DNA of 40,857 nt from an uncultured Fibrobacteria bacterium (GCA_964469025.1 CAYXXL010000001.1:1-40857), one strand, 5' to 3'; shown: positions 3,109 to 9,711, counted from the stretch's first letter. The notes: generated by a model from the sequence alone, not told the origin. Numbers and translations are program-made.

Positions 3109-3368
3109 GCCTTCGGCCATTGCGCTGCGCTTGGTTTACAGGGGCCAGCCGCGGCCCCTGTACCCGGCGGCCAAAGGAGCCGTGCGCTCGGCTCCTTTGG
3201 AATCCTGAGCGCCAGGGGGTTCAGACTCTCCGGGCGTCCCTTCCGTGTTTCTCCATCGGCCCGCATGGGCCGATGGCCAGCCTGGACGCCCTCCGAATAG
3301 CTTCACCCCCTGGACCCCTGCCGGTTTCTGCCGGGCTCGCATTGGCCCCTTTCGGGGCCTCGCTCGGC
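3109..3368. repeat. Composite GC-rich palindromic repeat, copy A
   Basis: 3109-3165 matches 8740-8798 and 3317-3368 matches 8798-8848 (copy C). About 150 bp in between is extra sequence. Perfect hairpins: tacaggggcc/ggcccctgta (3137-3162), ccaaaggagccg/cggctcctttgg (3171-3200) and ccatcggccc/gggccgatgg (3253-3276). The reverse complement of 3137-3205 aligns with copies B and D. Confidence 0.7.
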
Positions 3369-3422
3369 GGGGTTGGTTCCTGGTTGGGTTACGAACGCCG
3401 TCAGCCTGTCGCGGCCAACGGT

Positions 3423-3869
3423 TCACAGCAATCGCGATTCCATCGGCTCGAACTGCTGGAGAAAATGGTCGAACGTGACGTCCGTGATGTTCAGGTCGCT
3501 TTTGGCGCTGCCCTGGCGGGCTTGGTTTCTGGCTCGGCACTCCTCGATGGATGTGTCCAGGACCACCCAAGTGAAAGGCAGTCCCAACTCCGCCAGCCGT
3601 TCCTCCATCCGGGATCGCGAAGCCCGCGTCCAAAACCCGTAGTCCAGGATCACGGGCGTGCCAGATCTTGCCGCAGGGATCCAGATCGACTCGAACAGGA
3701 CCAGGAGATCCGTCAGATGCGTCGGGAACTCACTCGCCGGTGGATCGGACCCGAACAAGACGGACATCCATTCGTCCGGAGAGAACCGAAGCGCGCCGAA
3801 CTCCCGCTCCAACGCCTTCGCCCGCGTGGTTTTGCCCGACCCGATGAACCCGTGCATCAGGAAAATCAC
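3423..3869 (-). CDS. Small P-loop kinase-like ATP-binding protein (AAA_33-like)
   Basis: 148-aa ORF with a GTG start. MIFLMHGFIGSGKTTRAKAL is a strand followed by Walker A. Size and layout fit small nucleotide or shikimate/gluconate-type kinases. Confidence 0.7.
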   Translation of the reverse strand: MIFLMHGFIGSGKTTRAKALEREFGALRFSPDEWMSVLFGSDPPASEFPTHLTDLLVLFESIWIPAARSGTPVILDYGFWTRASRSRMEERLAELGLPFTWVVLDTSIEECRARNQARQGSAKSDLNITDVTFDHFLQQFEPMESRLL

Positions 3870-3875
3870 CGGGGC

Positions 3876-3953
3876 TCACCCACGGAATGGATCATCGGAC
3901 TCCGCCCGCCGAATCGCACCCGCGATTGCGCCCTTCCCCGCCAAAGGACTCAT
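3876..3953 (-). pseudogene. Remnant of a GNAT 5' end (25 codons then stop) immediately upstream of the P-loop kinase gene
   Basis: ATG 3953 gives MSPLAGKGAIAGAIRRAESDDPFRG-stop. This parallels VSPLAGEGAIAGAIRQAESGDLPAIL at the start of the GNAT at 7919. The stop lies 6 nt before the kinase GTG. Confidence 0.6.
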
Positions 3954-3972
3954 GCCGGAAAAACTACACCGC
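3891..3972 (-). repeat. 82-bp leader repeat, copy 1 (GNAT 5' end plus about 19 bp upstream)
   Basis: Hand alignment with 7857-7938 gives 72 of 82 identical positions with no gaps. Confidence 0.85.
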
Positions 3973-4156
3973 GAGGTGATCGGAGATGACGTCCGGTTCT
4001 TTCATCCGACGCAATTTTCCGTTAGTGAGTGTGGGAATTCCAGGAACCCAAGGGGGCTCAGCGATCTACGGTGGCCGATCATCCGATCGGAATAGTGCTT
4101 CCCCGAGACGGGTTGCGCTGTGGCACGTGGCGCATGCGCGGGGCTTTCTTTGCGCC

Positions 4157-6685
4157 TCAGCTCATTCCCGTGGTGGCCTTCAATTCCAAGCCGTCGCGGT
4201 ACAGGCGTGCCACAAAAATCTTGTCAGGCGATTTTTGGTCCTGGGAACGGATCACGTTCAAAACACCCACATCAACCAGCTTTGGAAGGATGTCCGTCTC
4301 CAAGAATTGGGCGATTATCTGCTTCTTGCCCTTGGAAAGGTTGTGTTGTAAATGCGCAACAAATTCCTGCAGCGAGGATGCAGGCTTCGCACCCTTCATC
4401 GCCTCGAGATATTCACGAAGCTCGAGGTACTCGTCAGTCAGGTCTTTTACTCGCTTGCGGCTTGCCTCTTCAATCCCTGCGCGAAGACTGGGATAGCGCA
4501 GGATGCGATCACCTCTAACATCACCGGACGATTCCGCTTCGGCCTTCCAGCTGCGTTCCACCATCTGCATGATGGTGCGAGGGAACAATCGTTCCTGGGA
4601 ATCCTGGATACGATTCAGTATGTAATTGGCGGTATAGGCGCGTTTCCCCTTCTCGATCTTCTCGCCCCACAATGGAAAAAGGGCACGACGCAACTCCGTG
4701 ATGTCTCCCGAGATGGACGATGGATCCTTCAGCATCTCCTCGCATGCCGGATCCCGTCGGACCACCTTTAGGACCAGTCTCCAAAGATCACGTTCCTCGA
4801 AGCGAAGGGTGCGCGTGATCGGCTCCAGATGGCTGCGATTCTGCATCTTGACCGCTAACCATATGTCCTCTCGAAGAAAGACCTTGAACTGAACTCTCTT
4901 AAGCCGTGTGCGCCACTGGGCAAGCAATTGGAGCAGGCCGACAACATATCGATCCCTGCGCGGAGTCCAATCCTCTGGATTGGTGTTCTGGAATCCAGTA
5001 TCCAGCCCATCAAAGACCAGGCACAGACCCTGTGTACCCGACATCAGATGCTTGTCTGCGGCCTTCAGCAGATCCTCTGCTTCCAAGGCGGCATCCCTGG
5101 ACTTCAGCAACGGAATGATCGTCTTGTAACCGGGCTCATCCCAGAAAGACTCTAACTTGGGACGCATCGGTCGCCTGACGCTTGCCAAGAGAACCGGTTT
5201 GATGTCTGCTTGATGGCGAACAATCGCTTGTAGGCACCAGTAGATCCAGAAAACATCATGGGCTCCAGAGTTTACAAGTCCGGAATCCTTCTCGATCTTC
5301 TCGAAGTGATCCTTGCTTAGAAAGGGCGCTTCCGCCAAATCCGCACGAGGTGACAAACCCACCAGATATTCGACATCGAAAGGAACCGGAAGGAGATCTC
5401 GATTGCGACTGGGGTTTGTCAGGTACTTCCATAGAAAGCTCTTGCCCGCACCCTTGGCTCCGATGACCAGATGGATGGAACGATCCACAGCCGCCCGGGC
5501 ATCCTCGGAATCGATTAAGGTCTCCTCGATTTCTTGAAGCGACAGGTTTTCGCCGTAGCCGAAGCGCTCCGACAGGTTTGAGGCCTGAAGGATGCGACGT
5601 CGTTCGATGACTCGCTCAGGTCCAGTGTCTTCGGTCTTGCCTAATGCCCCCGCAAGCACCTGTGACAGATTACGGAATATGTCCTGCGGGCCCACCGCAC
5701 CCAAGGGAAGGGGGATCTTGTTCGCACTCCACACCCTGGCGTCCTGATCTATTCCCTCTTCCAAAATCACGATGGATGACTCGCCGGACTCCTCATCCGT
5801 TGACTCGCGGGCATCCAGCAGTTCGGCATTCAATCGTTCGATCATCCGCTTCAAACGAGGATTTCCGTCCTTGCCAGGCAAAACCAGGCTGGGCACGAAA
5901 ATCAGCGTAGGAACTGCACCCCGTGCCTTGCGCGTCTTCACGAAAGCATCACGAATGACCCTCACACCGTCCCAGATCTGATCGGACACCGGAAGGAAGA
6001 CGACAATCGCGTCGGCAACATGGAACATCGCTGTTGCAGATAGAGCAGTGAAGCCTGTCCGGCAATCCAGGAACAGCGCATCGCGCTCCGGACTCGACAA
6101 TTCCTCCAACAGGCGCCGCAACGGATTCGGGCGCTCCGGCTCATATGCATGCCAAAGACCGACTCCCAACTCCTCGAGCTGCGCCAGATAGACCTCGTCG
6201 AGCCTTCCGGCCGGCAGGATCTCGATGCGTCCACCTTCGGAGCCGAGGGATTCGGGAACAGTCAACATTTGGCTGACTGCATCCAGGCTTCCCGGAAATG
6301 GCTGGCTGGCTGCCTCGGACAGCAGAGCCATTGATCCCTTCTCCACGACATCGGATGCGTACCCGAATAGCTGCGCTAGACCGGGTGCTTCGAGATCCAA
6401 ATCCACAATCCCGATCTTGCGGCCTTGACGAGCCAGCAGTGCCGCTACGTAGCCCAATGCGGTGCTGCGGCCTGCACCACCCTTGAAGCCATAGAACGCC
6501 ACAATCGGAGTCTTCTGCTCGTTCACAGGATCGATTTCAGAAGATGCTTTCTTTTCGATTGGTTGCATTTGCAAGATGTCGAAGAAACTCGCCGGACTGA
6601 ACATGGCGGGCACCGCCGACTCAGCAGGAGCCAGCTCTTCGCGAGCCTCCAGAACCTGACCAGCTTTTTTCCGAGTCATGGTCAT
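4157..6685 (-). CDS. 842-aa double P-loop protein: ParA/MinD-like module with KGGxGR Walker A, NACHT/STAND-like NTPase module, helical C-terminal region
   Basis: ORF 4157..6715. I prefer ATG 6685, which has GGAGG upstream and overlaps the stop of the upstream gene as ATGA.
- Module 1: VAFYGFKGGAGRSTALGYVAALLA (6461-6490), IVDLDLEAPGL and LFLDCRTGF.
- Module 2: Walker A VIGAKGAGKS (5438-5461) and Walker B LCLVFDGLD (5000-5026).
- No recognisable effector domain.
- Hand-counted GC is 45-57%. Confidence 0.8.
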   Translation of the reverse strand: MTMTRKKAGQVLEAREELAPAESAVPAMFSPASFFDILQMQPIEKKASSEIDPVNEQKTPIVAFYGFKGGAGRSTALGYVAALLARQGRKIGIVDLDLEAPGLAQLFGYASDVVEKGSMALLSEAASQPFPGSLDAVSQMLTVPESLGSEGGRIEILPAGRLDEVYLAQLEELGVGLWHAYEPERPNPLRRLLEELSSPERDALFLDCRTGFTALSATAMFHVADAIVVFLPVSDQIWDGVRVIRDAFVKTRKARGAVPTLIFVPSLVLPGKDGNPRLKRMIERLNAELLDARESTDEESGESSIVILEEGIDQDARVWSANKIPLPLGAVGPQDIFRNLSQVLAGALGKTEDTGPERVIERRRILQASNLSERFGYGENLSLQEIEETLIDSEDARAAVDRSIHLVIGAKGAGKSFLWKYLTNPSRNRDLLPVPFDVEYLVGLSPRADLAEAPFLSKDHFEKIEKDSGLVNSGAHDVFWIYWCLQAIVRHQADIKPVLLASVRRPMRPKLESFWDEPGYKTIIPLLKSRDAALEAEDLLKAADKHLMSGTQGLCLVFDGLDTGFQNTNPEDWTPRRDRYVVGLLQLLAQWRTRLKRVQFKVFLREDIWLAVKMQNRSHLEPITRTLRFEERDLWRLVLKVVRRDPACEEMLKDPSSISGDITELRRALFPLWGEKIEKGKRAYTANYILNRIQDSQERLFPRTIMQMVERSWKAEAESSGDVRGDRILRYPSLRAGIEEASRKRVKDLTDEYLELREYLEAMKGAKPASSLQEFVAHLQHNLSKGKKQIIAQFLETDILPKLVDVGVLNVIRSQDQKSPDKIFVARLYRDGLELKATTGMS

Positions 6686-7134
6686 GCCTCCACCATCGCG
6701 AGAACGATGTCGCAAAGATCCAACTCTTCCTGTGCTTCAGGGAGGGAAAGATTTTCCATCCCGTAGCGCAGGCTGTAAGGACGTTCCGGTTCTTTGGATT
6801 TTATCCTGTTCCAAACATTCCCTGTCAACGGCGATTCCTTCCCCAGTGTGATGCATAGTCGCGGCCAAACCGCTTCCTGGGAAAGTCCGCCCAGATCATG
6901 CCCGTTTTTCCCTTTGAAGATCTTGTCCCAAAGGTCCGGATGCTTGTCTTTGAAGGTGCTCAAGCGGGAACAATGGTAGAGCCCAAGAATTCTTGCCTTG
7001 AACGCGCACTCCAGGGCAATCTGGGCCAGATAGGCCGCAGGTATCGGCTTCGTCGCGTTTTGCAAGGCGACTGCTCCGTGATAGGTGTTGCGCGCATGTC
7101 TGAGGAGGTGCGCTTTGTCCAAGATAGCGGTCAA
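6682..7134 (-). CDS. 150-aa HEPN-like protein, first gene of the two-gene operon
   Basis: TTG start at 7134 with GGGGGAG 8 nt upstream. Pattern LECAFKARILG ... KNGHDLGGL ... YSLRYG mirrors EKALKA ... THDLGKL ... FRY of the MNT-partnered HEPN at 8867-9266. An N-terminal RHARNTYH could be read as Rx6H. The stop overlaps the next start. Confidence 0.6.
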   Translation of the reverse strand: MTAILDKAHLLRHARNTYHGAVALQNATKPIPAAYLAQIALECAFKARILGLYHCSRLSTFKDKHPDLWDKIFKGKNGHDLGGLSQEAVWPRLCITLGKESPLTGNVWNRIKSKEPERPYSLRYGMENLSLPEAQEELDLCDIVLAMVEA

Positions 7135-7448: not shown

Positions 7449-7919
7449 TCACAGCCGGAGTTCGTAGCCCTGCTTGGAGTCGGGATTGAAGCCCGCCGCC
7501 TCGTAGAACATATGGGCCTCCGATCGCTTCTTGCTGCTCTGGAGCAACACCTTGTAGCAGTCGTGCGCCTTGGCGATGGAGACGGCCTCGGCCATCAGGC
7601 GCGTTCCGTGCTTGAGCCTTCGAAATCCATCCGCGACGACCACGTTCTCGATCACCCCGAAGGGACGTCCGGATCTTGTCAAGTTGGGGATGATGGAAAG
7701 ATTGCAGGTCCCGACGACACCGGAAGGTCCATCCACGACCAAGTAGACCAGATTCCGACTGCCACGGATCTCGTTCCAGAGAGTCGCTGCCTTTGCCGGG
7801 TCCAACGGATCATCGTCGGGATTGAGCTGGGCATAGAGTGCCAGGATCGCCGGCAAATCACCGGATTCCGCCTGCCGGATCGCACCCGCAATTGCGCCCT
7901 CTCCCGCCAATGGACTCAC
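7449..7919 (-). CDS. GNAT family N-acetyltransferase
   Basis: ORF 7449..8084, trimmed to GTG 7919 because the duplicated copy has ATG at the homologous position. The fold pattern includes FGVIENVVVADGFRRLKHGTRLM (acetyl-CoA binding region) and FYEAAGF at the C-terminus. Confidence 0.75.
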   Translation of the reverse strand: MSPLAGEGAIAGAIRQAESGDLPAILALYAQLNPDDDPLDPAKAATLWNEIRGSRNLVYLVVDGPSGVVGTCNLSIIPNLTRSGRPFGVIENVVVADGFRRLKHGTRLMAEAVSIAKAHDCYKVLLQSSKKRSEAHMFYEAAGFNPDSKQGYELRL

Positions 7920-7938
7920 GCCGGAAAAGCTACACCGC
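7857..7938 (-). repeat. 82-bp leader repeat, copy 2 (authentic GNAT 5' end)
   Basis: See 3891-3972; 72 of 82 positions are identical. Confidence 0.85.
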
Positions 7939-8001
7939 CAGCCAGTCGGCGAGCGAAAGCGAGCCGCCCGCGACGACGGCGGGGGTCCGCGGGGAATCCA
8001 A

Positions 8002-8059
8002 GGGGCCACGCGGTCGGCCCCTTGGCCGGGGTACAGGGGCCCGGCGGCCCTTGTACATC
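8002..8059 (+). repeat. GC-rich palindromic repeat, copy B
   Basis: 56 of 58 positions are identical to 9654-9711. Hairpins: ccaaggggcc/ggccccttgg (7998-8025, perfect 10 bp) and gtacaggggcc/ggcccttgtac (8031-8056, one mismatch). Confidence 0.85.
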
Positions 8060-8113
8060 GAGGCTGCACCGCCAGGCGCAACAAAGCCCCGCGCAGCGAA
8101 AGGTCCCCGTACG

Positions 8114-8713
8114 TCAGGACGGAAACCCGCAGAACGGATCATCCTTCCCGTCCTCGTTCCAGACGTGCTCGAGCGCAGCCGCGACCTTGCGGGCGACTTC
8201 CGGTCGGATCTTGTCCGCCACGAACCCCAGCGCCATGTCGATCCCCGCGGTGATCCCGGACGAGGTCCAGAACTTGCCGTCCACGACCCAGGGCGCCTTG
8301 CGGATCCAGCGGACCTTTGGTCCCTGCGTCACCACCCAGTCCCACGCCAACTTGTTGCTGGTCGCCTCGCGGCCATCCAGCAACCCCGCCCGGGCCAGCA
8401 GGGCCGATCCGGTGCAGACGCTCAGGACCGTTCCCGCCTTCTCGACAATCCCTCGCAGGAGATCCAGGAAGGGCGCATCCTCCACCAGTCCCCGCGTCCC
8501 GAGTCCACCGGGCACCAGCAGGATGTCGCTTTCCAGGACCTCCTCCACCGGCTGGGTGTCCACCCTGGCTCCAGTGGAACTGGTCACCAGTCCCCCGTTG
8601 CGAGAGTGGTAGGAGATGCAGAACTGCCCCTCCAGCTTGGAAAACACCTCGGTGGGGCCCATGGCATCCAACGTCGTGAACCCGTCGAAAAGAAGGACAT
8701 GGATGTGTTGCAT
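8114..8713 (-). CDS. DJ-1/PfpI family protein (class I glutamine amidotransferase-like fold)
   Basis: 199 aa with an ATG start. Diagnostic stretches are MQHIHVLLFDGFTTLDAMGP, LLVPGG, the nucleophile elbow VLSVCTGSALLA, and TSSGITAGIDMAL. Confidence 0.8.
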   Translation of the reverse strand: MQHIHVLLFDGFTTLDAMGPTEVFSKLEGQFCISYHSRNGGLVTSSTGARVDTQPVEEVLESDILLVPGGLGTRGLVEDAPFLDLLRGIVEKAGTVLSVCTGSALLARAGLLDGREATSNKLAWDWVVTQGPKVRWIRKAPWVVDGKFWTSSGITAGIDMALGFVADKIRPEVARKVAAALEHVWNEDGKDDPFCGFPS

Positions 8714-8739: not shown

Positions 8740-8848
8740 GCCTTCGGCCGTGGCGCTGCACTCGCTTCGCACAGGTGCCTGCCGCGGCCCCTGTACCCCT
8801 GCCGATCTCTGCCGGGCTCGCGTTGGCCCCTTCGGGGCCTCGCTCGGC
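8740..8848 (-). repeat. GC-rich palindromic repeat, copy C (inverted relative to B and D)
   Basis: Collinear with the two ends of copy A. Its reverse complement aligns with B and D around GGGGTACAGGGGCC. It contains a ggcccc-ttc-ggggcc hairpin. Confidence 0.7.
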
Positions 8849-8866
8849 TGGACGGTTTCTCGACGC

Positions 8867-9266
8867 CTACGACTGCATTCCGCCCGGAAGATCGCCGTGT
8901 ACTCGACTGTACAAGGCCTGCAAAGAGACGACAATTTCCCTTCGTGGAAGCGGATCGCTGTCTTCGGGCAATCCGTCGTATCGAAATTGGACCGCGAACG
9001 AAGTCCAACGGGTCAAAGGCCATAGCGGCGCAGGGTCTACACCCAATCTTTCGAGAATCGGAATCAACTTCCCGAGATCATGCGTCGGTGGATATTCTCC
9101 GCCGAGCCGTGAAATCCAAGCCTTCAACGCCTTTTCCGTAGGCCTGCTGCGCATGAAATTCGAAAATCTCCTCGGCGAGTTCCTTGGAATATTCGAAGAT
9201 TTCGAGAGCCCGGAGATCCTTCCGACCCATCTCCAGGATGGACTCCCATTCCTCAGACATGCCCAT
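8867..9266 (-). pseudogene. HEPN domain protein (MNT partner, TA toxin-like) interrupted by a frameshift
   Basis: Two overlapping ORFs in different frames: 9078..9266 (..EIFEFHAQQAYGKGVEGL) and 8867..9154 (..TEKALKAWISRLGGEYPPTHDLGKL..FRYDG). Removing 1 nt within 9137-9140 restores FHAQQA-x-EKALKAW. The start overlaps the MNT gene by 14 nt. Confidence 0.7.
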
Positions 9267-9653: not shown

Positions 9654-9711
9654 GGGGTCACGCGGTCGGCCCTTTGGCCGGGGTACAGGGGCCCGGCGGC
9701 CCTTGTACATC
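9654..9711 (+). repeat. GC-rich palindromic repeat, copy D
   Basis: 56 of 58 positions are identical to copy B. Hairpin gtacaggggcc/ggcccttgtac at 9683-9708. It lies between the hemW stop and the MNT start. Confidence 0.85.

What the first reader, a model, noticed from the sequence alone, without database searches (positions are those of the whole stretch)
5000..6490. Arg replaces the signature Lys in the ParA-like Walker A (KGGAGRST) while the second P-loop in the same polypeptide is canonical
The reverse complement of 6461-6490 reads GGC TTC AAG GGT GGT GCA GGC CGC AGC ACC, which is GFKGGAGRST. ParA/MinD proteins normally carry KGGxGK[ST]. Here the second Lys, which contacts the phosphate, is Arg, while the N-terminal signature Lys is kept. 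The downstream module keeps an orthodox GAKGAGKS (5438-5461) and hhhhDGLD (5000-5026). One chain therefore carries an atypical, possibly slow or regulatory nucleotide-binding dimerisation module together with a conventional NTPase. The KGGxGR variant is, to my knowledge, a recognised but functionally uncharacterised ParA/MinD subgroup. Its fusion to a STAND-like module is what stands out.
Basis: partly seen in the sequence, partly recalled or inferred. Interest (0 to 1): 0.6.

Follow-up and report, generated by a model that had tools for sequence, protein, structure and literature searches.

The report
Arg-P-loop ParA fused to ORC-like ATPase
The unusual arginine in the ParA-like ATP-binding loop is real and conserved, but it is the known hallmark of a recently described, still untested candidate anti-phage system (HINPO / PADLOC PDC-M28), of which this two-gene operon is a trimmed, fused variant.

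Summary
The ORF at 4157-6715(-) reads GFKGGAGRST, then GAKGAGKS and CLVFDGLD. The Arg is not an error or a one-off: it is invariant in 59/59 full-length homologues, and the identical protein is on record from several sources.

The N-terminal module passes NCBIfam NF047398 (KGGVGR-motif variant ATPase) and folds like Soj/ParA. The C-terminal module passes NF047389 (Sll1717 family) and folds like Orc1/Cdc6, ending in a winged helix.

A 150-aa HEPN-fold gene (6682-7134) sits directly upstream, 2 nt from the likely ATG, and is conserved upstream in more than 50 related loci.

The pair matches PADLOC candidate PDC-M28 (B and C fused). It also matches the "HINPO" system of Li, Burroughs and Aravind (bioRxiv, October 2026), whose ParA clade is defined by this Arg plus a PG motif.

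The fusion is the commonest layout, so it is not what stands out. What differs is that this clade lacks the N-terminal inactive nucleotidyltransferase domain. Function is untested. The operon sits in a low-GC island and is patchy among relatives. Interest is moderate to low.

The parts
6682..7134 (-). Small HEPN-fold protein (150 aa), the PA-HEPN1 / PDC-M28A-like partner and putative RNase effector. Invariant residues in its family are E42, C43, K46, H79, R123 and Y124.
   Evidence: - A homologue lies directly upstream of the ATPase gene in more than 50 related loci (alignment A3).
- 12/38 family members hit Pfam HEPN PF05168, best E 1e-6.
- The AF2 model has pLDDT 93.4.
- The top 11 Foldseek PDB hits are all HEPN proteins, TM 0.43-0.63, but E-values are only 0.04-0.4.
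- hhalign of the family profile against a PDC-M28A-positive protein from the same genus gives probability 98.6%, E 1e-15.
- The window's own protein gives no direct Pfam or PADLOC hit.
4157..6679 (-). Fused double ATPase gene. It is 840 aa from ATG 6679-6677 (M13). The ORF is open back to TTG 6715, giving 852 aa. The stop codon is at 4157-4159.
   Evidence: - ORF and translation.
- The database protein P0002 starts at M13.
- GGAGG at 6687-6691 lies 7 nt before this ATG (read).
- The HEPN stop codon TGA at 6682-6684 is 2 nt upstream.
5636..6511 (-). ParA/MinD-like module of the KGGVGR / ConB2 type, about residues 69-360.
   Evidence: - NF047398: 133.6 bits against a cut-off of 90, residues 69-254.
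- PADLOC PDC-M28B: E 3.8e-27, residues 60-294.
- Foldseek: Soj 1wcv, TMt 0.78.
6461..6490 (-). Deviant Walker A GFKGGAGRST. K78 is the signature (trans) position. R83 replaces the P-loop Lys.
   Evidence: - Sequence.
- R83 is present in 59/59 sequences. Position 78 is R in 43 and K in 16. G79, G80, A81 and G82 are invariant.
6380..6403 (-). DLDLEAPG (residues 105-112): the switch-I/sensor aspartates followed by the PG motif characteristic of the clade.
   Evidence: - D105, D107, E109, A110, P111 and G112 are invariant in 59/59 sequences.
- The PG motif is named as a ConB2 hallmark in bioRxiv 10.64898/2026.10.19.760177.
6053..6079 (-). Walker B of the ParA-like module, ALFLDCRTG (residues 213-221).
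   Evidence: D217, C218, R219 and G221 are invariant in 59/59 sequences.
4160..5485 (-). ORC/Cdc6-STAND-clade AAA+ module (about residues 411-852). It ends in a predicted winged-helix domain (about residues 775-840; 4196-4393).
   Evidence: - NF047389 Sll1717 family: 105.7 bits against a cut-off of 75.
- PDC-M28C: E 1.3e-23.
- 36/59 family members hit Pfam PF24389 ORC-CDC6-like.
- Foldseek hits: Cdc6/Orc1 2qby, 2v1u and 1fnn, and SSO1545 2fna.
- Secondary structure of the model.
5438..5461 (-). Canonical Walker A of the second module, GAKGAGKS (residues 419-426).
   Evidence: G419, K421, G422, G424 and K425 are invariant in 59/59 sequences.
5000..5023 (-). Walker B of the second module, CLVFDGLD (residues 565-572).
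   Evidence: D569 and L571 are invariant. G570 and D572 are each present in 58/59 sequences.
6572..6604 (-). Conserved N-terminal peptide MFSPASFFDIL (residues 38-48). It aligns with the linker that follows the iNTase domain in the longer relatives. No iNTase domain precedes it here.
   Evidence: - M38, F39, S40, A42, F44 and V47 are invariant or nearly so.
- Alignment with the longer forms.
- The stop-to-stop frame is only 859 aa, so there is no room for a 90-120-aa domain.
4001..7000 (.). Low-GC island that holds the operon.
   Evidence: GC is 0.546-0.562 here. The flanks are 0.646 and 0.607-0.655, and most of the window is 0.67-0.72.

Best explanation
**What it is.** The locus is a horizontally acquired two-gene candidate immunity (anti-phage or anti-mobile-element) operon. 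It is of the HINPO / PADLOC PDC-M28 kind. The first gene encodes a small HEPN-fold protein. The second encodes one polypeptide that joins a ConB2-type ParA-like module (Arg in the P-loop) to an ORC/Cdc6-STAND-clade AAA+ module with a C-terminal winged helix.

**Proposed mechanism (inferred, not shown).**
1. The ORC/Cdc6-like module with its winged helix senses invader DNA, or a state caused by the invader. It uses its orthodox Walker A/B site as a conventional ATP switch.
2. The ParA-like module keeps everything needed to bind Mg-ATP and to form a nucleotide-sandwich dimer. These are a basic residue at the trans 'signature' position, a Ser/Thr after the P-loop, both switch aspartates, and the Walker B Asp.
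3. It carries Arg where the phosphate-contacting Lys normally sits. It therefore most likely acts as a slow-hydrolysing, long-lived ATP-dependent dimerisation or multimerisation switch, not as a fast ATPase.
4. Assembly of the double ATPase then blocks the invader directly, or releases or activates the HEPN protein as an RNase that causes dormancy or abortive infection, or does both.

**How this clade differs.** The B and C genes of the three-gene form are fused. The N-terminal inactive nucleotidyltransferase domain of typical HINPO ParA proteins is absent. Any input through that domain is therefore missing.
For: **Shown here**
- Domain identity of both modules and of the HEPN partner.
- Invariance of R83, D105, D107 and D217, and of the second site (G419, K421, G422, G424, K425, D569).
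- Tight coupling of the two genes. The gap to M13 is 2 nt, an SD sequence lies 7 nt upstream, and the alternative ATG (M11) overlaps the stop as ATGA.
- The small gene is conserved directly upstream in more than 50 loci across Cyanobacteriota, Myxococcota, Chloroflexota, Acidobacteriota and Verrucomicrobiota.
- A genome of the same genus carries the split three-gene form. It hits PDC-M28 A, B and C (E 4e-12, 5e-51, 1.7e-49) and sits directly beside an IetA defence gene.
- Its A protein matches our HEPN family profile at 98.6% probability.
- Distribution is patchy: 9/296 genomes of the phylum and 3/41 relatives.
- GC is about 55%, against about 65% in the immediate flanks and 67-72% over most of the window. 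This points to an accessory, transferred element.

**From the literature**
- ConB2 ParA is defined by the Arg-for-Lys change and the PG motif. The HINPO architecture, including fused forms, and the sensor/switch/effector model are described in bioRxiv 10.64898/2026.10.19.760177.
- PDC systems are untested candidates found embedded in BREX, DISARM and type I RM loci (bioRxiv 10.1101/2024.01.29.577857).
- BcsQ, a natural SIMIBI protein without the P-loop Lys (RGGVGTT), holds ATP in a stable sandwich dimer with weak ATPase activity (PMC7840130; PMC9178275).
Against: - No member of this system has been tested for defence, ATPase, dimerisation or RNase activity. The whole mechanism is inference.
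- The canonical HEPN Rx4-6H arginine is not conserved in the partner family. The window has K-x4-H and the cyanobacterial forms have TNPGH, so RNase activity is uncertain.
- Foldseek E-values for the HEPN model are weak, 0.04-0.4. The window's own HEPN protein has no direct Pfam or PADLOC hit.
- Arg at this position could still support hydrolysis when a partner stimulates it. The conserved catalytic aspartates argue that some turnover is selected for.
- The window's island holds no undisputed defence gene next to the operon. The neighbours are a GNAT, a DJ-1/PfpI protein, an AAA_33 kinase and a broken MNT/HEPN pair.
Confidence: 0.6

Rival explanations
1. The ParA-like module is itself the primary effector. 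Guided by the ORC/Cdc6-like DNA sensor, it polymerises on invading DNA and blocks its replication or packaging. The HEPN protein is only a back-up suicide effector. This is the model preferred by the authors of the HINPO preprint.
For: - The model is stated in bioRxiv 10.64898/2026.10.19.760177.
- The fusion gives fixed 1:1 stoichiometry of sensor and ParA module.
- A slow-hydrolysing Arg P-loop would favour persistent assemblies (precedents).
Against: - In F ParA, K120R fails to reach the ATP* state and does not polymerise.
- The HEPN gene is retained and translationally coupled in nearly all loci examined. This argues that it is core, not optional.
- There is no experimental evidence either way.
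Confidence: 0.2
2. The pair is a toxin-antitoxin-like addiction module that stabilises a mobile island. The HEPN protein is the toxin and the double ATPase is its neutraliser or regulator. It has no dedicated immune role.
For: - The operon lies in a low-GC island together with other TA-like genes: a GNAT, an AAA_33 kinase and a broken MNT/HEPN pair.
- 96-nt direct repeats bracket the segment.
- HEPN proteins are common TA toxins (PMC3710099 and PMC13000451, listed).
Against: - An 840-aa double NTPase with two conserved active sites is far more machinery than known antitoxins need.
- The split form sits beside IetA in a relative.
- The family was originally picked up embedded in BREX, DISARM or RM loci.
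- No integrase or mobility gene is seen in the island.
Confidence: 0.12
3. It is a housekeeping or mobile-element maintenance function. The ParA-like module positions or partitions DNA and the ORC/Cdc6-like module initiates replication of an integrated element.
For: ParA and Orc1/Cdc6 are the nearest structural relatives of the two modules.
Against: - There is no ParB, parS, origin-like repeats or replicon genes nearby.
- The gene is present in only 9/296 genomes of the phylum.
- The P-loop Lys, which partition ParA proteins need for their cycle, is replaced.
- The constant partner is a HEPN protein.
Confidence: 0.04
4. The Arg marks a decayed, non-functional pseudo-ATPase domain, or is a sequencing artefact.
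For: Lys-to-Arg changes at this position inactivate hydrolysis in model ParA proteins.
Against: - R83 and the surrounding G79, G80, A81 and G82 are invariant in 59/59 sequences at 32-49% overall identity. D105, D107 and D217 are invariant too.
- The identical protein has been assembled repeatedly.
- All three codon positions would have to be wrong.
Confidence: 0.02

Closest known systems
[quoted passage not shown] ConB2 clade of ParA. Li, Burroughs and Aravind, bioRxiv 10.64898/2026.10.19.760177 (22 Oct 2026). Computational description only.
   Same: - An upstream HEPN gene.
- A ParA module with Arg in place of the Walker A Lys and a PG motif after the DxD.
- An ORC/Cdc6-STAND-clade AAA+ partner, which the authors note is sometimes fused to the ParA component.
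   Different: - The window's protein and its clade have no room for the N-terminal iNTase domain. The FYGF motif is at residue 74 (residue 62 from M13), against about 128 in the cyanobacterial fused forms.
- They carry GGAGR, not GGVGR.
- They form their own branch of the ParA-domain tree, support 100/99.
PADLOC-DB v2 phage defence candidate PDC-M28 (genes A, B, C). Payne et al., bioRxiv 10.1101/2024.01.29.577857. Untested.
   Same: - Residues 60-294 hit PDC-M28B (E 3.8e-27) and residues 407-656 hit PDC-M28C (E 1.3e-23).
- The HEPN family is profile-homologous to a PDC-M28A-positive protein.
   Different: - B and C are one polypeptide here.
- The window's A-like protein does not reach the PDC-M28A HMMs.
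- A three-gene rule would probably miss this locus.
NCBIfam NF047398 (KGGVGR-motif variant AAA ATPase, a domain model) and NF047389 (P-loop ATPase, Sll1717 family)
   Same: Both models are passed above their curated cut-offs (133.6 against 90, and 105.7 against 75).
   Different: - The names are descriptive only and no function is attached.
- The NF047389 match covers only profile positions 172-424 of 454.
BcsQ (cellulose secretion; Walker A RGGVGTT) and the F-plasmid ParA/SopA K120R mutant
   Same: Both are SIMIBI/ParA-fold proteins without the P-loop Lys. Both still bind ATP and hydrolyse weakly or not at all. BcsQ forms a stable ATP sandwich dimer.
   Different: - Their biology is unrelated (secretion-system assembly and plasmid partition).
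- BcsQ has Thr, not Arg, and has also lost the water-activating Asp. The present family keeps D105 and D107.
Soj/ParA/MinD partition and positioning ATPases
   Same: - The fold (Soj 1wcv, TMt 0.78).
- A deviant Walker A with an N-terminal basic residue, the switch aspartates and Walker B.
   Different: - Arg replaces the catalytic Lys.
- There is no ParB or MinE-type partner.
- The module is fused to an AAA+ module, has a HEPN partner, and is accessory and horizontally transferred.

Membership tests
ParA/MinD (SIMIBI) superfamily | ParA/MinD alpha/beta fold | tested here: met
   - The AF2 model has pLDDT 87.4.
- Top Foldseek PDB hits are Soj, ParA, the delta protein, McdA, FleN and MinD. Soj 1wcv gives TMt 0.78.
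ParA/MinD (SIMIBI) superfamily | Deviant Walker A with an N-terminal signature Lys (xKGGxxK[ST]) | tested here: met
   K78 is present here. The position is always basic in the family (R in 43/59, K in 16/59).
ParA/MinD (SIMIBI) superfamily | Canonical P-loop Lys before [ST] | tested here: not met
   R83 is present in 59/59 sequences. This is the defining deviation of the KGGVGR/ConB2 subgroup.
ParA/MinD (SIMIBI) superfamily | Switch-I aspartates and Walker B aspartate | tested here: met
   D105, D107 and D217 are invariant.
ParA/MinD (SIMIBI) superfamily | ATP-dependent sandwich dimer | not testable with these tools
   No multimer prediction or biochemistry was available.
NCBIfam NF047398 (KGGVGR-motif variant AAA ATPase) | Score at or above the curated cut-off of 90 bits | tested here: met
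   133.6 bits, residues 69-254, profile positions 2-185 of 190. The genome-level search gave 136.9 bits.
NCBIfam NF047389 (P-loop ATPase, Sll1717 family) | Score at or above the curated cut-off of 75 bits | tested here: met
   105.7 bits. The best stretch covers only residues 547-828, profile positions 172-424 of 454.
PADLOC PDC-M28 | B component (ParA-like) | tested here: met
   PDLC04559, E 3.8e-27.
PADLOC PDC-M28 | C component (AAA+/ORC-like) | tested here: met
   PDLC04561, E 1.3e-23.
PADLOC PDC-M28 | A component (small protein) matched by its HMM | tested here: not met
   - There is no hit at E <= 0.1 and none in the whole genome.
- Homology is seen only at profile level: hhalign 98.6% to a PDC-M28A-positive protein.
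PADLOC PDC-M28 | Three separate genes A, B and C | tested here: not met
   B and C are one ORF.
HINPO system | Upstream HEPN (PA-HEPN1) gene | tested here: met
   - 12/38 family members hit Pfam HEPN.
- The top Foldseek hits are HEPN structures.
- Identity with the authors' PA-HEPN1 could not be checked because their alignments are not held.
HINPO system | Inactive Pol-beta nucleotidyltransferase domain N-terminal to ParA | tested here: not met
   - At most 73 residues (61 from M13) precede the first strand and most of them are predicted disordered.
- The open frame is 859 aa at most.
- The longer relatives carry about 90 extra residues that are absent here.
HINPO system | ConB2 ParA: Arg for the Walker A Lys, plus a PG motif downstream of sensor-1 | tested here: met
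   R83 and DLDLEAPG are present, all invariant.
HINPO system | ORC-CDC6/STAND-clade AAA+ component, downstream or fused | tested here: met
   - 36/59 family members hit PF24389.
- Foldseek gives Orc1/Cdc6 hits.
- The component is fused here.
STAND NTPases (NACHT, NB-ARC and similar, with tripartite architecture) | C-terminal superstructure-forming repeat sensor (TPR, WD40, LRR) | tested here: not met
   The protein ends in a winged-helix-like domain at residue 852. No repeat domains are seen in Pfam or in the model.
STAND NTPases (NACHT, NB-ARC and similar, with tripartite architecture) | Central STAND-type NTPase signature models | tested here: inconclusive
   - Only 2/59 family members hit NACHT and 1/59 hits nSTAND5, which maps to the ParA part.
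- The module is better described as ORC/Cdc6-like.

The most novel reading that the evidence does not exclude
**The Arg as an adaptive change.** The invariant Arg P-loop may not be a mere loss of activity. It may be an adaptive change that turns the ParA fold into a near-non-hydrolysing, ATP-latched (or alternative-nucleotide-sensing) dimerisation device. This device would be wired in cis to an ORC-like DNA sensor.

**A minimal core.** The clade without the iNTase domain may represent a minimal, self-sufficient core of the system: a HEPN protein plus one polypeptide. It could establish a new mechanistic class of abortive-infection switch.
Probability: 0.25. Interest if true: 0.6.

Novelty: new variant of a known kind. 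Interest (0 to 1): 0.35.

Why it matters
- **What would be new.** ParA/MinD ATPases are textbook positioning machines. Their wholesale recruitment into immunity was proposed only in late 2026 and has no experimental support for this branch.
- **Why this variant suits experiments.** It needs only two genes and about 3 kb, and it lacks the enigmatic iNTase domain. That makes it a convenient minimal construct.
- **Questions it could answer.**
  - Does the system defend against phage or plasmids?
  - What does a naturally Arg-substituted P-loop do to the ATP cycle of a ParA fold?
  - Is the HEPN partner, which lacks the canonical Arg of the Rx4-6H motif, an active RNase?
- **For annotation.** Rule-based tools that expect three genes and the PDC-M28A HMM will probably miss fused loci like this one.

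Tried and rejected
- **PDC-M28A search.** I searched the genome and the upstream ORF for the PADLOC PDC-M28A model and found no hit. Homology appeared only through a family profile.
- **Word-indexed homologue search with the 150-aa protein.** It found only the protein itself. The family had to be collected from the flanks of ATPase homologues.
- **Profile of the small protein against PDB sequences.** It returned only chance-level hits. Structure comparison was needed.
- **Literature search for 'KGGVGR', 'KGGxGR', 'Sll1717' and 'PDC-M28'.** It found nothing.
- **The genome search centred on a locus id.** A handle was obtained first.
- **First tree script.** It failed on a file path and was rerun.
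- **Supplement of the preprint.** It is not held. I therefore could not check whether the authors already list forms without the iNTase domain.
- **Promoter and terminator scan.** It gave nothing above the shuffled expectation. There is one promoter-like site at 7218-7189(-), upstream of the HEPN gene.
- **Readings considered and rejected.**
  - Partition ParA: there is no ParB and distribution is patchy.
  - Classical STAND/NLR: there is no repeat sensor.
  - Pseudo-ATPase relic: the active-site residues are invariant.
Full report
**1. Observation**

The window holds one long ORF on the minus strand at 4157-6715, 852 aa from a TTG.
- The reverse complement of 6461-6490 reads GFKGGAGRST (residues 76-85).
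- GAKGAGKS is at 5438-5461 (residues 419-426).
- CLVFDGLD is at 5000-5023 (residues 565-572).

The most likely start is ATG 6679-6677 (M13, 840 aa).
- GGAGG at 6687-6691 lies 7 nt upstream of it.
- The database copy of the protein starts there.

The Arg codon CGC differs from AAG or AAA at all three positions. The identical protein is on record from NCBI/Logan/ENA (2 contigs) and JGI/IMG (4 contigs).

**2. The Arg is a fixed family character**

A word-indexed search found 62 full-length relatives of 815-874 aa at 32-49% identity, plus the protein itself. In an alignment of 59 of these sequences:
- G79, G80, A81, G82 and R83 are invariant.
- D105, D107, E109, A110, P111 and G112 (DLDLEAPG) are invariant.
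- D217, C218, R219 and G221 (Walker B) are invariant.
- In the second site, G419, K421, G422, G424, K425, D569 and L571 are invariant.

The 'signature' position 78 is always basic. It is Arg in 43/59 sequences and Lys in 16/59, so the window's Lys is the minority state.

Everything needed for Mg-nucleotide binding is under purifying selection. Only the P-loop Lys is systematically replaced. A decaying pseudo-ATPase would not look like this.

**3. Domain identities**

N-terminal module:
- NCBIfam NF047398 'KGGVGR-motif variant AAA ATPase' matches residues 69-254 at 133.6 bits (cut-off 90).
- Pfam gives ParA, AAA_31, CbiA and MipZ matches on the N-terminal part.
- 57/59 family members hit CbiA and AAA_31.

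C-terminal module:
- NF047389 'P-loop ATPase, Sll1717 family' matches at 105.7 bits (cut-off 75).
- 36/59 family members hit PF24389 ORC-CDC6-like.

Structure:
- An AlphaFold2 model built on the 59-sequence alignment has mean pLDDT 87.4.
- Foldseek against the PDB puts the N-terminal module with Soj, ParA, the delta protein, McdA, FleN and MinD. The best is Soj 1wcv, TM 0.78 normalised to the target.
- It puts the C-terminal module with Orc1/Cdc6 (2qby, 2v1u, 1fnn) and the archaeal AAA+ protein SSO1545 (2fna).
- The last 70 or so residues are predicted as a winged-helix-like unit.
- There is no C-terminal repeat sensor. 'ORC/Cdc6-STAND-clade AAA+' is therefore more accurate than 'STAND'.

**4. 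The partner gene**

A 150-aa ORF at 6682-7134(-) ends with TGA, 2 nt before M13. The alternative ATG (M11) overlaps that stop as ATGA.

The ORF has no direct Pfam or PADLOC hit, and the word-indexed search found only the protein itself. I therefore collected ORFs from the flanks of ATPase homologues.
- An HMM built from four upstream proteins found a homologue on the same strand, ending just before the ATPase gene, in more than 50 loci.
- In the 38-sequence alignment, E42, C43, K46, H79, R123 and Y124 are invariant.
- 12/38 members hit Pfam HEPN PF05168 (best E 1e-6) and 2 hit HEPN_AbiV.
- The AF2 model has pLDDT 93.4.
- Its top eleven PDB matches are all HEPN proteins: TT1696, AF_0298, 4nqf, ST0689, SsR10, sacsin HEPN and TM0613. 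TM-scores are 0.43-0.63 and E-values are a weak 0.04-0.4.

The fold assignment is sound. Catalytic competence is open, because the Arg of the canonical Rx4-6H motif is not conserved. The window has K-x4-H and the cyanobacterial forms have TNPGH.

**5. What system this is**

PADLOC models match the two halves of the ATPase separately.
- Residues 60-294 hit PDC-M28B (E 3.8e-27).
- Residues 407-656 hit PDC-M28C (E 1.3e-23).

A genome of the same genus (locus L092) carries the split three-gene form.
- Proteins of 125, 443 and 494 aa hit PDC-M28 A, B and C at E 4e-12, 5e-51 and 1.7e-49.
- The trio lies directly downstream of an IetA defence gene.
- Its A protein matches our HEPN family profile by hhalign at 98.6% probability, E 1e-15.

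PDC systems are 145 untested 'phage defence candidates' derived by guilt-by-embedding in BREX, DISARM and type I RM loci (bioRxiv 10.1101/2024.01.29.577857).

A preprint of 22 October 2026 describes the same system more specifically (Li, Burroughs and Aravind, bioRxiv 10.64898/2026.10.19.760177).
- Within ConB2 it defines the HINPO system. This has an upstream HEPN gene, a ParA with an N-terminal inactive Pol-beta nucleotidyltransferase (iNTase) domain, and a downstream ORC-CDC6/STAND-clade AAA+ protein, 'in several cases ... directly fused'.

The window's R83, DLDLEAPG, HEPN partner and ORC-like module fit this description.

**6. How the window differs**

In the retrieved loci:
- The cyanobacterial, Chloroflexota and some Myxococcota fused proteins are 864-932 aa. 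Their FYSFKGGVGRT motif is at about residue 128. It is preceded by a domain of about 90 residues, which fits the iNTase domain of the preprint.
- The window's protein and its close relatives are 843-857 aa. Their FYGF[RK]GGAGR[TS] motif is at residue 55-83. It is preceded only by a short, basic, low-confidence stretch and a conserved peptide MFSxASFxDhL. That peptide aligns with the linker after the extra domain in the long forms.

The stop-to-stop frame here is 859 aa, so the domain cannot be hidden upstream.

On a maximum-likelihood tree of the ParA part, the short forms make one well-supported branch (100/99). Its members come from Myxococcota, Verrucomicrobiota, Acidobacteriota and Riflebacteria.

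The exhaustive representative search gave the following.
- 105 cluster representatives match at E <= 1e-30.
- About 17 full-length representatives are of this short type.
- A larger set of about 850-920-aa proteins is offset by +50-60 residues.
- A further set of about 745-800-aa proteins starts almost at the ParA strand.

Forms without the iNTase domain are therefore recurrent. The preprint's main text does not mention them, and its supplement is not held.

**7. How common the fusion and the domain are**

- 518 loci in the species-representative genome set encode a relative.
- Of 82 ORFs analysed, 78 are fused, two are split (447 and 450 aa) and two are cut by contig ends.
- In 201 sampled genomes of the phylum of the Anabaena genome (Cyanobacteriota), 27 carry the KGGVGR domain above the cut-off. 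About 28 of the 38 ORFs have the fused size (870-955 aa) and 7 have the split size (458-483 aa).
- In the window's own phylum only 9/296 genomes carry the domain. The window's is the only fused one of this size. The others are about 450-480 aa, or 1029-1176 aa with other architectures.

Together with GC of 0.55-0.56 over 4001-7000, against about 0.65 in the immediate flanks and 0.67-0.72 over most of the window, this points to horizontal acquisition. A pair of 96-nt direct repeats at 3891-3986 and 7857-7952 (83% identical) brackets the operon plus the body of the neighbouring GNAT gene.

**8. Mechanism**

Shown here:
- The architecture, the conservation pattern, the gene coupling, and the accessory, transferred nature of the operon.

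Inferred:
- The ORC/Cdc6-like module with its winged helix senses invader DNA and cycles ATP conventionally.
- The Arg-P-loop ParA module binds ATP and dimerises or multimerises but hydrolyses slowly, so it acts as a latch.
- The HEPN protein is the effector or back-up effector.

Precedents for the middle step:
- F-plasmid ParA K120R binds ATP but does not hydrolyse. It also fails to reach the ATP* state.
- BcsQ (RGGVGTT) keeps ATP in a stable sandwich dimer with weak ATPase activity.

The conserved D105 and D107 suggest that some stimulated turnover is still selected for. None of this has been tested for any member of the system.

**9. Verdict**

- The feature is the catalogued hallmark of a described, untested system, and the fusion is the norm.
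- What is modestly new is a fused clade without the iNTase domain. Three-gene detection rules would probably miss it, and it would make a compact experimental model.
- Earlier notes of this scan on similar loci reached the PDC-M28 assignment independently. I re-derived that assignment here and added the link to the HINPO preprint.

Noticed in passing
window 3891-3986 and 7857-7952: 96-nt direct repeats, 83% identical, bracket the HEPN-ATPase operon plus the body of the GNAT gene. They look like a footprint of cassette insertion or recombination.
   Followed up: partly
window 3138-3371, 8002-8059, 8771-8851, 9654-9711: Several GC-rich repeat families of 25-58 nt (88-97% identical) lie at the borders of the island's modules.
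   Followed up: no
L092 2336-6528 (genome G006, same genus): The canonical split three-gene PDC-M28/HINPO trio (125, 443 and 494 aa, Walker A KGGLGR) has an N-terminal extension of about 125 aa on the ParA protein. It lies directly downstream of an IetA homologue (E 4e-134).
   Followed up: yes
proteins P0126, P0131, P0136, P0138, P0145, P0154, P0159, P0184 and P0190: A third class of fused ParA-ORC proteins of about 760-800 aa. The ParA strand starts at residue 3-7, so there is no N-terminal region at all.
   Followed up: no
protein P0064: A 1239-aa relative combines the ParA-like domain with NACHT (PF05729) and an FGE-sulfatase domain (PF03781). This is another ConB2-type architecture.
   Followed up: no
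window 8867-9154 (-): A 95-aa ORF hits Pfam HEPN (E 2.7e-5) over only part of the model. It appears to be the truncated HEPN half of an MNT/HEPN pair, as another first-stage note says.
   Followed up: partly
window 3423-3869 (-): A 148-aa AAA_33 P-loop kinase-like gene (E 8e-26) lies just downstream of the operon on the same strand. A GNAT gene (7449-8084) and a DJ-1/PfpI gene (8114-8713) lie upstream.
   Followed up: no
window 6572-6604 (-), residues 38-48: The peptide MFSPASFFDIL is nearly invariant and is modelled with pLDDT of about 88. It corresponds to the linker after the iNTase domain in the longer forms. Its role is unknown.
   Followed up: partly
genomes G149, G159, G191, G222 and G224 (same class): KGGVGR-domain ORFs of 1029-1176 aa occur, sometimes two per contig about 10 kb apart. 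Their architecture was not examined.
   Followed up: no
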